Both the position numbers and the translations under genes were made by a program. A DNA stretch of 16,062 bases from a virus. Its lineage: Duplodnaviria; Heunggongvirae; Uroviricota; Caudoviricetes. The stretch spans positions 1 to 16,062 of IMG/VR virus record IMGVR_UViG_2698536355_000012; one strand, written 5' to 3'. Each line of letters starts with the position of its first letter. Position 1 is the first letter of the stretch. Below are positions 1,177-1,708 of the stretch, piece after piece. The notes beneath the pieces are model-generated. The model saw only the letters and a program-made list of their open reading frames with translations, searched no databases and had not been told where the DNA came from.

Positions 1177-1340
1177 TTCGTGACCTCAGTTAAATCAATC
1201 CAGCGCTCTTTTACGCCATCGATCTTTAATATATGGACCCCTTCCTGCCATAATCCCCTTTGTATCCGTTTATTAACAGCTTCTACGGTCTCGCCGGAGT
1301 CACGGCAGTAAGTTGATATGGGTACGCATTCAAGATTCAT
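1131..1340 (-). CDS. xis: Putative excisionase / small DNA-binding recombination directionality factor
   Basis: 69 aa basic ORF immediately upstream of and overlapping int by 46 nt, same strand. Size and position are typical of Xis; sequence similarity to a specific Xis family was not confirmed. Confidence 0.5.
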   Translation of the reverse strand: MNLECVPISTYCRDSGETVEAVNKRIQRGLWQEGVHILKIDGVKERWIDLTEVTKWARKNKDPYSSHAV

Positions 1341-1708
1341 GATCCACCCCCCAAAACCTTTAATCCCATCGCTTCAACTGCTTTGCATATATCACGCTCA
1401 TAGCGCCGATGCTGAAAAGTGCCATCAAACCAGTAATCTTCATTGCTGGTGGATGGTAGCGATATTTCTCGCTTTGCTACAGGCATGATCCCGCGCGAAA
1501 CACCAGTACGTATCTCTATGAAGCCTTTCTTCTCCAATGCGCGTAAGTGTTCAACAGCTGCATTTGTCGAGCAAAATCCCATCCCGACAGCGATTTCAGA
1601 TTTAGTGGGTGGCATACCGTGACTGGCAATGTACTGGGTAACAAAGTCCAGAACTTGTCGCTGTCGTCCGGTAAGGGCGCATACTTTTTTGTTGATCAAC
1701 TTGGTCAT
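1337..1708 (-). CDS. LexA N-terminal DNA-binding-domain protein lacking the S24 peptidase domain
   Basis: Residues TGRQRQVLDFV...HGMPPTKSEIA...GFCSTNAAVEHLRALEKKGFIEI align closely with the recalled LexA winged-helix N-domain (LTARQQEVFDLI...GMPPTRAEIA...[23 protein letters not shown]). No Ser/Lys peptidase motif follows. Start placed at ATG 1708 (MTKLINKK), preceded by GGAGA 6 nt upstream; the listed ORF extends to 1744. Confidence 0.7.
   Translation of the reverse strand: MTKLINKKVCALTGRQRQVLDFVTQYIASHGMPPTKSEIAVGMGFCSTNAAVEHLRALEKKGFIEIRTGVSRGIMPVAKREISLPSTSNEDYWFDGTFQHRRYERDICKAVEAMGLKVLGGGS

What the first reader, a model, noticed from the sequence alone, without database searches (positions are those of the whole stretch)
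1337..1708. Stand-alone LexA DNA-binding domain without the autopeptidase domain in the early-left operon
The protein matches the LexA N-terminal winged helix almost residue for residue in the recognition region, but lacks the Ser/Lys S24 domain and instead ends in about 50 unrelated residues. Such a protein could occupy host SOS boxes without being cleavable by RecA, or compete with LexA, thereby rewiring the host SOS response in favour of the phage. It is separate from the S24-containing CI repressor at 7311..7970.
Basis: partly seen in the sequence, partly recalled or inferred. Interest (0 to 1): 0.6.

Follow-up and report, generated by a model that had tools for sequence, protein, structure and literature searches.

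The report
Phage LexA-type DNA binder lacking protease
An E. coli prophage carries a small early gene that joins a copy of the DNA-reading head of the host SOS repressor LexA to a short conserved tail also found on other phage accessory proteins; it could bind LexA's DNA sites without being destroyed by the DNA-damage signal, but this is untested.

Summary
Window 1337..1708 (minus strand) encodes a 123-aa protein. Residues 11-76 are a LexA-type winged helix (Pfam E 1e-22; predicted fold within 1.0-1.7 Å of solved LexA). It has no S24 protease domain and no cleavage site. Four of LexA's five DNA-contacting helix-3 residues are kept.

The "about 50 unrelated residues" are not filler. They are a conserved ~40-aa module (LP-x6-YWFDGxFQHxRYERDV-x8-G). 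The same module sits on about 33 protein clusters of Enterobacterales prophage "LexA family" proteins. It also follows short coiled coils, Ead/Ea22-like proteins and phrog_343 proteins. Across the family the tail is more conserved than the DNA-binding head, and the specificity residues of the head vary.

About 26 kb of this phage contains no SOS box, so any LexA-like target would lie in the host or in the unseen late region.

Best reading: a RecA-insensitive DNA binder of LexA-like specificity, made from the leftward early operon and probably assembled through its tail. Confidence is about 0.4.

Stand-alone LexA heads are already widely annotated in phages, but I found no functional study. I rate this a new variant of a known kind, of moderate interest.

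The parts
1337..1708 (-). Complete CDS (123 aa plus stop) of the stand-alone LexA-type protein, called LexN here
   Evidence: ORF list. The identical 123-aa product is called in 154 blocks of public assemblies. Pfam LexA_DNA_bind E 1.1e-22.
1481..1678 (-). Residues 11-76: LexA-type winged helix-turn-helix (three helices plus a beta wing)
   Evidence: Model helices at 14-30, 36-43 and 48-60, with wing strands at 64-66 and 74-76. Best structural matches are LexA 1lea, 3jso and 1jhh.
1535..1570 (-). Residues 47-58: recognition helix STNAAVEHLRAL, equivalent to LexA 39-50
   Evidence: Alignment. Contact residues are listed in PMC3091678. Family variation is tabulated.
1352..1459 (-). Residues 84-119: conserved portable tail module LPSTSNEDYWFDGTFQHRRYERDICKAVEAMGLKV
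   Evidence: Invariant P85, Y92, W93, G96, Q99, H100, Y103 and D106 in 35 sequences. The tail-only search finds it on other protein types. AF2 places a strand at 81-83, a helix at 101-113 and a strand at 117-119, at pLDDT 59-71.
1716..1719 (-). Shine-Dalgarno-like GGAG, 7 nt upstream of the ATG at 1708
   Evidence: Read directly from the sequence.
1337..1340 (-). ATGA overlap: the LexN stop codon overlaps the start codon of xis (1131..1340), which suggests translational coupling with xis and int
   Evidence: ORF coordinates. xis matches phrog_2917 (excisionase) and int matches phrog_1.
1751..2320 (-). Upstream neighbour in the same operon: Rv2179c-like 3'-5' exoribonuclease. It is also the upstream neighbour in Hafnia phage yong2 and related loci.
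   Evidence: Pfam PF16473 E 1.7e-74. Synteny.

Best explanation
LexN is a functional accessory protein of an E. coli lambdoid prophage. It is probably a delayed-early product, being the gene just before xis and int at the far end of the leftward (PL-type) operon. Its LexA-type winged helix reads DNA the way LexA does (CTGT-like half-sites). It has no S24 domain and no cleavage site, so RecA* cannot inactivate it. It also lacks the cleavage-generated C-terminus that, from my own recollection, marks the LexA N-terminal fragment for ClpXP. I infer that the conserved tail lets two heads act together, so that the protein behaves like the engineered fusions of the LexA DNA-binding domain to a foreign dimeriser. 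No LexA-type box is present in 26 kb of the phage, so the likeliest targets are host SOS boxes. The protein would then hold all or part of the SOS regulon, and other LexA-controlled elements, repressed after infection or induction while host LexA is being cleaved.

Shown here: domain identity and fold; absence of the protease and the cleavage site; conservation of both parts and purifying selection in relatives; gene position; absence of SOS boxes nearby.

Inferred: DNA specificity; tail-mediated self-association; expression from PL; the physiological effect.
For: - LexA head by sequence and by predicted structure.
- S39, N41, A42 and E45 are retained. The head belongs to the most LexA-like subclade of the family, 65% identical to some cellular LexA heads.
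- No S24 domain; the lexA equivalog model fails.
- A free LexA N-terminal domain still binds SOS boxes and represses, and must be removed by ClpXP for SOS induction (PMC10584840).
- A LexA DNA-binding domain fused to a heterologous dimerising domain is a dimerisation-dependent repressor (PMC7102963).
- The tail occupies the C-terminal-domain position of Ead/Ea22-like proteins. Those domains vary in sequence but are dimeric where studied (PMC10834534).
- Purifying selection in the Hafnia relatives: 0 nonsynonymous against up to 13 synonymous changes in the head, and dN/dS about 0.2 in the tail.
- The gene sits in the leftward operon with no promoter-like site of its own, and its stop overlaps the xis start.
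- No LexA-type box in the window or in the next 10 kb of the phage.
Against: - No binding or oligomerisation data exist, and I could not run a dimer prediction.
- The tail model is only moderately confident (pLDDT 59-71).
- Across the family the specificity residues vary, and even close relatives replace E45 (P0021, P0024, P0033). The SOS box is therefore not a conserved family target.
- The tail core is more conserved than the head (79% against 55% mean pairwise identity). It also occurs directly after coiled coils, which are already oligomerisers. Both facts fit an effector or partner-binding role better than a simple dimeriser.
- E44 is V and R28 is K in the query.
Confidence: 0.4

Rival explanations
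1. The tail is the effector. The YWFDG-RYERD module binds a conserved host or phage partner, and the N-terminal part is an exchangeable delivery or oligomerisation device: a LexA winged helix, a coiled coil, or the phrog_343 N-domain. On this reading LexN tethers the effector to DNA, and its biology is closer to that of the Ea22-type exo-xis accessory proteins than to that of LexA. This can coexist with SOS-box binding.
For: - The tail core is more conserved than the head, with many invariant aromatic and charged residues.
- The same module sits on at least four N-terminal types, including proteins that are only a coiled coil plus the tail (P0157, P0161, P0172) and a 48-aa tail-only protein (P0140).
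- Tail alleles are swapped by recombination within the Hafnia group while the head stays constant.
Against: - No partner is known.
- The module has no match in Pfam (local copy), in PDB by sequence, or in PADLOC.
- Small obligate-dimer domains can also be highly conserved.
- The strong purifying selection on the head shows that DNA binding itself matters.
Confidence: 0.25
2. LexN is a phage-specific regulator. The LexA fold is only a scaffold, and each variant recognises its own operator on the phage (possibly in the late or unseen part of the genome) or a specific host promoter, not the general SOS box.
For: - Positions equivalent to LexA 40, 42, 44 and 45 diversify across the family, as immunity-type repressors do.
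- LexA mutants such as LexA408 recognise an altered operator rather than the wild-type one (PMC7102963). That the three changes in LexA408 lie at positions 40-42 is my own recollection.
- Some related phages carry strong LexA-like boxes of their own: SfV L002:7898, L017:1909, L019:2438.
Against: - The query itself keeps LexA's reading residues.
- No CTGT-based palindrome at any spacing from 0 to 20 lies in intergenic DNA of the window.
- No conserved candidate operator lies next to the gene.
- The gene sits at different genome positions in different phages, which argues against a fixed cis target nearby.
Confidence: 0.25
3. LexN is a competitor rather than a repressor. A monomeric head occupies half-sites or displaces LexA, weakening repression and promoting SOS or prophage induction.
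For: The protein lacks LexA's dimerisation domain.
Against: - SOS boxes overlap promoters, so occupancy by any protein is expected to repress (inference).
- An isolated LexA N-terminal domain represses (PMC10584840).
- The gene is expressed only after CI is already inactivated, when LexA is already being cleaved (inferred from operon position).
Confidence: 0.05
4. The gene is a decaying fragment of a captured lexA gene with no function.
For: It is only the N-terminal third of a LexA-like protein.
Against: - There is a conserved family of ~33 clusters with a specific, invariant tail motif.
- Relatives show dN/dS far below 1.
- The 123-aa sequence is identical across many assemblies whose neighbouring genes are mosaic.
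- The head is only 56% identical to E. coli LexA, so it is not a recent capture from the host.
Confidence: 0.02

Closest known systems
Cellular LexA repressor (E. coli LexA; PDB 1LEA, 3JSO; TIGR00498)
   Same: The N-terminal winged helix is 52-56% identical, with the same predicted fold. Helix-3 contact residues S39, N41, A42 and E45 are kept, as are wing residues S63, R64 and G65.
   Different: There is no S24 autoprotease domain, no Ala84-Gly85 site and no LexA dimerisation domain. The protein scores below the equivalog cut-off. It is phage-encoded and, by inference, expressed from the early-left operon. It carries a foreign 40-aa tail.
Stand-alone 'LexA DNA binding domain' proteins of lambdoid phages (SfV Orf42, mEp460, SfII/SfIV, Stx2c phages; PHROG 362)
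   Same: These are phage-encoded proteins of ~108 aa with a LexA head only. They are 58.7% identical over residues 12-74, and the recognition helix is almost the same (SVNAAVEHLRALEKKG). I found no functional study of them.
   Different: Their C-terminal ~35 residues are unrelated to the YWFDG-RYERD tail; the match to phrog_362 stops at profile position 68 of 106. They lie in the nin region between dam and rusA rather than next to xis and int.
Engineered fusions of the LexA DNA-binding domain to a heterologous dimeriser (LexA408-VVD and LexA408-RsLOV light switches; from my own knowledge also LexA-Jun zipper and the LexA-based bacterial two-hybrid)
   Same: The architecture is the same: a LexA head, a short linker and a foreign C-terminal module. 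In the engineered proteins repression depends on dimerisation by that module, and they are insensitive to RecA (PMC7102963).
   Different: Those are artificial. Dimerisation by the natural tail is not shown here.
Ead/Ea22-like proteins and phrog_343 / PF26207-type small proteins of lambdoid exo-xis and nin regions
   Same: They share the C-terminal module LP-x6-(Y/F)W(F/I)(D/E)G-x-FQ-x2-RYERDV-x8-G. They occupy the same kind of genomic neighbourhood.
   Different: Their N-terminal parts are coiled coils or an unrelated small domain, not a DNA-binding winged helix. The solved lambda Ea22 C-terminal domain shows no sequence match to this tail.
LexA N-terminal autocleavage fragment (LexA 1-84)
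   Same: It is a free LexA head that still binds SOS boxes and represses (PMC10584840).
   Different: The cleavage fragment exposes a ClpX recognition signal and is degraded by ClpXP (PMC10584840). LexN ends in a different sequence (…KVLGGGS) and so presumably escapes that route (inference).
Phage GIL01 gp7
   Same: A phage factor that manipulates LexA-dependent repression and blocks RecA-mediated inactivation (PMC4551915, title and abstract).
   Different: There is no homology. gp7 acts by binding host LexA, whereas LexN would replace it.

Membership tests
Canonical LexA repressor (TIGR00498) | N-terminal LexA-type winged helix-turn-helix | tested here: met
   Pfam PF01726 at 80 bits against a cut-off of 23.7. 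PDB 1lea at E 3e-19. Foldseek rmsd of 1.0-1.7 Å to LexA.
Canonical LexA repressor (TIGR00498) | C-terminal S24 serine-lysine autoprotease and dimerisation domain | tested here: not met
   No PF00717 hit. TIGR00498 scores 66.2 bits against a cut-off of 110.95 and matches only profile positions 3-67 of 203. The protein is only 123 aa.
Canonical LexA repressor (TIGR00498) | Ala-Gly autocleavage site in the hinge | tested here: not met
   The alignment to LexA ends at residue 78. There is no Ala-Gly dipeptide anywhere in the sequence (read).
Canonical LexA repressor (TIGR00498) | Specific binding to CTGT-N8-ACAG SOS boxes | not testable with these tools
   Only indirect evidence: S39, N41, A42 and E45 are kept. 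No SOS box lies in 26 kb of the phage.
Phage stand-alone LexA-head proteins (PHROG 362, SfV Orf42 type) | Phage-encoded protein of about 100-125 aa consisting of a LexA head without S24 | tested here: met
   phrog_362 at E 1.3e-23 over residues 11-76. 71 phage records hold relatives.
Phage stand-alone LexA-head proteins (PHROG 362, SfV Orf42 type) | C-terminal region of the PHROG 362 type | tested here: not met
   The match covers profile positions 3-68 of 106 only. tblastn to these phages stops at residue 74. The SfV Orf42 tail sequence is unrelated.
YWFDG-RYERD tail-module proteins (LexA-head subgroup, P0018-P0050) | LexA head followed by the LP-x6-YWFDG-x-FQH-x-RYERD-x9-G module | tested here: met
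   Alignments A3 and A4, with invariant P85, Y92, W93, G96, Q99, H100, Y103 and D106. The profile search returns ~33 clusters at 118-198 bits, well separated from cellular LexA at 97 bits or less.
phrog_343 / PF26207-type and Ead/Ea22-like proteins | Their N-terminal domains (PF13935, or the phrog_343 N-region) | tested here: not met
   Neither PF13935 nor phrog_343 is among the query's hits. Only the C-terminal module is shared.
Lambda CI-type prophage repressor | HTH_3 or Cro/CI head plus S24 domain, next to cro at the immunity region | tested here: not met
   That role is filled by 7311..7970 (HTH_3 plus Peptidase_S24), next to cro at 8064..8261. LexN lies 5.6 kb away at the int end.

The most novel reading that the evidence does not exclude
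The YWFDG-RYERD tail is a previously undescribed portable module of lambdoid accessory proteins that both assembles and acts on a host partner. Fused to a LexA head, it would give the induced phage a RecA-proof SOS super-repressor. This would re-silence the host SOS regulon, and LexA-controlled competitors such as other prophages' antirepressors, colicins and SOS-induced toxins, at the very moment host LexA is being destroyed.
Probability: 0.25. Interest if true: 0.7.

Novelty: new variant of a known kind. Interest (0 to 1): 0.45.

Why it matters
Temperate phages are known to listen to the SOS response through cleavable CI repressors and LexA-controlled antirepressors. Much less is known about phages talking back to it. 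A RecA-insensitive LexA look-alike made early in lytic growth would be a simple way to shut the host's damage response, and rival LexA-controlled elements, back down.

Stand-alone LexA heads are annotated in hundreds of phages, but I found no functional study, so one well-chosen experiment would give a function to a large class. Separately, the tail links LexN to the Ea22 and exo-xis group of lysis-lysogeny modulators, whose mechanism is also unknown. LexN would give that module a testable DNA-tethered context.

Tried and rejected
1. Phage-borne SOS boxes. CTGT-N8-ACAG with up to 1 mismatch gave 2 hits against 5.2 expected. CTG-N10-CAG gave 7 against 5.0, all in coding DNA. A 20-bp matrix built from about 21 E. 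coli sites recalled from memory gave a window maximum of 8.9, below the shuffle median of 9.6, and nothing at or above 13 in L024. CTGT/ACAG palindromes at spacings 0-20 gave none in intergenic DNA except one likely chance site at 6569.

2. A second tail copy at the C-terminus of the Ea22-like ORF 3519..4223. It looked similar by eye but has no HMM match.

3. A second LexA head hidden in the 665-aa methyltransferase, suggested by the chimeric phrog_29443. None was found.

4. Relatives in one-genome-per-species bacterial contigs. Two scans were empty.

5. Complete E. coli genomes. There is no megablast match to 1100-2400, although the prophage sits in E. coli chromosomes (flank 99.9% identical).

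6. Single-sequence AF2. The tail was unmodelled. The alignment-based model is better but still only moderate.

7. Solved structure for the tail by profile search. None was found.

8. PADLOC. No defence-system match for LexN.

9. Literature on phage stand-alone LexA heads. Five searches found nothing specific.

10. dN/dS on near-identical copies of the query gene was uninformative, so I used the Hafnia group instead.

11. Extending the phage sequence past the portal gene was not possible under the look-up rules, so the late and tail region near attR remains unscanned.

Full report
**What is there**

On the minus strand, 1337..1708 encodes a 123-aa protein. A GGAG lies 7 nt upstream of the ATG. 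Public gene calls use the same product, and the identical sequence is listed in 154 blocks of public assemblies.

Residues 11-73 match Pfam LexA_DNA_bind at E 1.1e-22. phmmer against PDB sequences aligns residues 11-86 to E. coli LexA residues 3-78 at E 3e-19. An AF2 model built on a 35-sequence family alignment gives the head pLDDT 82-88. Its best structural matches are all LexA: 1lea at 1.0 Å over 66 columns and 3jso_A at 1.7 Å over 75 columns, with 52-56% identity.

The recognition helix STNAAVEHLRAL is identical to LexA's [12 protein letters not shown] at 9 of 12 positions. PMC3091678 lists five helix-3 contact residues: S39, N41, A42, E44 and E45. Four are kept, and E44 is V.

There is no S24 domain. 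The NCBIfam lexA equivalog scores 66 bits against a cut-off of 111 and covers profile positions 3-67 only. There is no Ala-Gly site. The prophage's real CI (HTH_3 plus Peptidase_S24) is at 7311..7970, next to cro.

**Context**

The window is the early region of a lambdoid prophage. On the minus strand the order is:
- int (1..1176)
- xis (1131..1340)
- LexN (1337..1708)
- an Rv2179c-like 3'-5' exoribonuclease (1751..2320)
- several ea-type ORFs
- an HNH endonuclease
- an Ea22-like ORF
- a dNMP phosphatase
- DUF2303
- YfdP
- a gap of about 950 bp
- cI

Rightward come cro, cII, a replication gene, two methyltransferases, rusA, rha/ant, DUF968 and the start of a further ORF that runs off the window end; the Q antiterminator follows at that position in the matching locus L024.

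The LexN stop overlaps the xis start (ATGA). No promoter-like site precedes it on its own strand. It is therefore most simply the gene just before xis and int in the PL-type operon (inference).

The flank of one carrier contig is 99.9% identical to the E. coli ycgH-ymgF-pdeG region, so the host is E. coli. However, the int-xis-LexN-exo segment has no megablast match in 5,426 complete E. coli genomes.

**The tail is the surprise**

They are unrelated to LexA, but they are a conserved module. Hafnia phage yong2 encodes a 123-aa homologue (49% identity over 88% of the length) in the same position, after the same kind of exonuclease and next to int. Twelve IMG/VR contigs encode full-length relatives at 40-60% identity.

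A profile search of 5.8 billion proteins returns ~33 clusters at 118-198 bits. They come from Pantoea, Hafnia, Lelliottia, Erwinia and unclassified Enterobacteriaceae, and are named only "LexA family protein" or "LexA family transcriptional regulator". They are cleanly separated from cellular LexA, which scores 97 bits or less.

In the 35-sequence alignment the invariant columns are N49 and R72 in the head, and P85, Y92, W93, G96, Q99, H100, Y103 and D106 in the tail. Mean pairwise identity is 55% for the head, 66% for the tail, and 79% for the tail core at residues 92-110.

A filter-free search of 1.84 billion representatives with the tail alone, followed by a profile search, finds the same module at the C-terminus of other small phage proteins:
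- phrog_343 / PF26207-type proteins of 75-127 aa
- proteins that are just a short coiled coil plus the tail (P0157, P0161, P0172)
- Ead/Ea22-like proteins (P0144 with PF13935, and an ORF in L022)
- a 48-aa protein that is the tail alone (P0140)

These are documented.

P22-like Salmonella phages such as SE1 and ST160 carry the module on a nin-region ORF. The module has no hit in the local Pfam copy and no sequence match in PDB. AF2 models it as strand 81-83, a loop holding YWFDG, helix 101-113 and strand 117-119, at pLDDT 59-71.

**Is the gene functional?**

Yes. In the Hafnia group the head shows 0 nonsynonymous against up to 13 synonymous changes. The tail exists as two alleles with dS about 1 and dN about 0.2, exchanged by recombination at the head-tail junction. 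The query protein is identical across assemblies whose neighbouring genes are mosaic.

**What does the head read?**

The query keeps LexA's reading residues and belongs to the most LexA-like subclade. It is 65% identical to some cellular LexA heads, 56% to E. coli LexA and 56% to SfV Orf42.

Across the tail-bearing family those residues are not kept:
- Position 42 is N in 16, A in 11, S in 7 and T in 1 of 35 sequences.
- Position 45 is L in 15 and E in only 5.
- Position 44 is mostly Q.

LexA mutants such as LexA408 recognise an altered operator rather than the wild-type one (PMC7102963). That the changes in LexA408 lie at positions 40-42 is my own recollection. Host LexA and SOS boxes are essentially constant across Enterobacterales (established knowledge), so SOS-box binding cannot be the family's common denominator. 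It remains plausible for this member and for the SfV Orf42 type, which has nearly the same helix.

**Targets**

No LexA-type box is present in the window or in the next 10 kb of the same phage (Q, lysis genes, terminase, portal; locus L024):
- CTGT-N8-ACAG with up to 1 mismatch gave 2 sites against 5.2 expected.
- The position-weight-matrix maximum was 8.9, against a shuffle median of 9.6, while known sites score 13-27. The matrix was built from sites recalled from memory, so it is crude.
- No CTGT palindrome at any spacing from 0 to 20 lies in intergenic DNA.

If LexN reads CTGT half-sites, its targets are host SOS boxes or lie in the unscanned late region.

**Mechanism**

Two published facts make the repressor reading reasonable. 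A free LexA N-terminal domain still binds SOS boxes and represses, which is why cells remove it with ClpXP (PMC10584840). A LexA DNA-binding domain fused to a foreign dimeriser is a dimerisation-dependent repressor (PMC7102963).

LexN has that architecture. Its tail sits where Ea22-type proteins carry C-terminal domains that vary in sequence but are dimeric where tested (PMC10834534). I therefore favour, at about 0.4 confidence, a RecA-insensitive DNA binder of LexA-like specificity that is assembled through its tail. It would be made after infection or induction and would keep SOS-box promoters occupied while LexA is cleaved.

The main rivals are at about 0.25 each:
- The tail is the real effector and the head only tethers it. 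This is supported by the tail's higher conservation and by its occurrence after coiled coils that already oligomerise.
- Each family member has its own non-SOS operator. This is supported by the diversification of the specificity residues.

A competitor or derepressor role is unlikely, and a pseudogene is effectively excluded.

**Novelty**

Stand-alone LexA heads are common in phage annotation. Examples include PHROG 362 ("transcriptional repressor"), 71 phage records, and many BFVD models of 65-152 aa from coliphages, a mycobacteriophage, tectiviruses and marine viruses. I found no functional study of any of them. The class is thus annotated but uncharacterised.

What is new here is the specific fusion to a portable, highly conserved tail shared with Ea22-like and other exo-xis or nin proteins. 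I file it as a new variant of a known kind, with moderate interest (0.45).

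Noticed in passing
window 3519..4223 (-): The 234-aa ORF matching the same PHROG families (1138, 250) as Ead/Ea22-like proteins also matches the PADLOC model DpdH at E 1.5e-39 (residues 119-214). This is an unexpected link between a phage exo-xis accessory protein and a model from the Dpd defence-island set.
   Followed up: no
window 10130..11029 (+) and 11022..13019 (+): Two DNA methyltransferases lie back to back in the nin region: a Dam-type gene and a 665-aa C5-cytosine type. They occupy the slot where SfV has dam followed by its stand-alone LexA head Orf42. 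PHROG 29443 is a chimera that matches the methylase N-terminus at profile positions 1-129 and the LexA head at positions 144-182. I found no LexA head inside this window's methylase.
   Followed up: partly
window 6355..7310: A stretch of about 950 bp between the first recognisable early-left gene (YfdP-like) and cI has no ORF with a family match. A strong terminator-like hairpin lies at 7274..7297 (-) just after cI, and a promoter-like site at 7206..7234 (-) could be PL. An N-like antiterminator or an RNA could be hidden here.
   Followed up: no
window 1725..1742: A perfect 6-bp GC hairpin (GCCCGG-N6-CCGGGC) sits in the 42-nt spacer between the exonuclease gene and LexN. On the plus (antisense) strand it is followed by a T-rich run and scores as terminator-like. 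On the sense strand it is not.
   Followed up: no
L002:7898-7917 (phage SfV); L017:1909; L019:2438 and 3387: Some phages that encode a stand-alone LexA head carry near-consensus SOS boxes. SfV has one at the start of orf48 (a DNA methyltransferase), scoring 22.3. A Hafnia prophage has one between cI and its early-left operon, scoring 21.4. Another phage has one inside its cI gene (23.2) and one before a ParB-like gene (17.0). These are candidate cis targets for phage LexA-head proteins. The query phage has none in 26 kb.
   Followed up: partly
L001:8080-8099 and 8119-9234 (Hafnia phage yong2): The deposited genome of Hafnia phage yong2 carries a recA gene preceded by a good SOS box (TACTGTGTAAATCAACAGTG, score 18.9). 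It lies two genes from int and from the LexN homologue.
   Followed up: no
window 1..4300: The int-xis-LexN-exonuclease end of this prophage has no megablast match in 5,426 complete E. coli genomes. Yet the identical LexN protein occurs in 154 blocks of public assemblies, and one carrier contig has a typical E. coli flank (ycgH-ymgF-pdeG, 99.9% identity). The prophages sit at more than one chromosomal site (loci L003-L008).
   Followed up: partly
window 13417..13713 (+) and 13710..14411 (+): Two consecutive ORFs both begin with a Phage_pRha domain. The first is 98 aa. The second is 233 aa and adds an ANT/KilAC antirepressor domain. This looks like a partial duplication or a split gene. No SOS box precedes them.
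   Followed up: no
L001, L013-L018 (Hafnia group), LexN homologues: The tail exists as two diverged alleles (…RYERDIYKALQSAGIDAV… and …RYERDVYRSLELAGVIV…) recombined onto an invariant head. L017 is a visible recombinant with its junction in the linker. This is direct evidence that the tail is exchanged as a unit.
   Followed up: yes
P0018 (Pantoea, 147 aa) in alignment A4: One family member has an internal tandem duplication of about 30 residues spanning helix 2 to helix 3 of the LexA head (TNKEITVGMGWASANNAQSHLQALQRKGWL appears twice).
   Followed up: no
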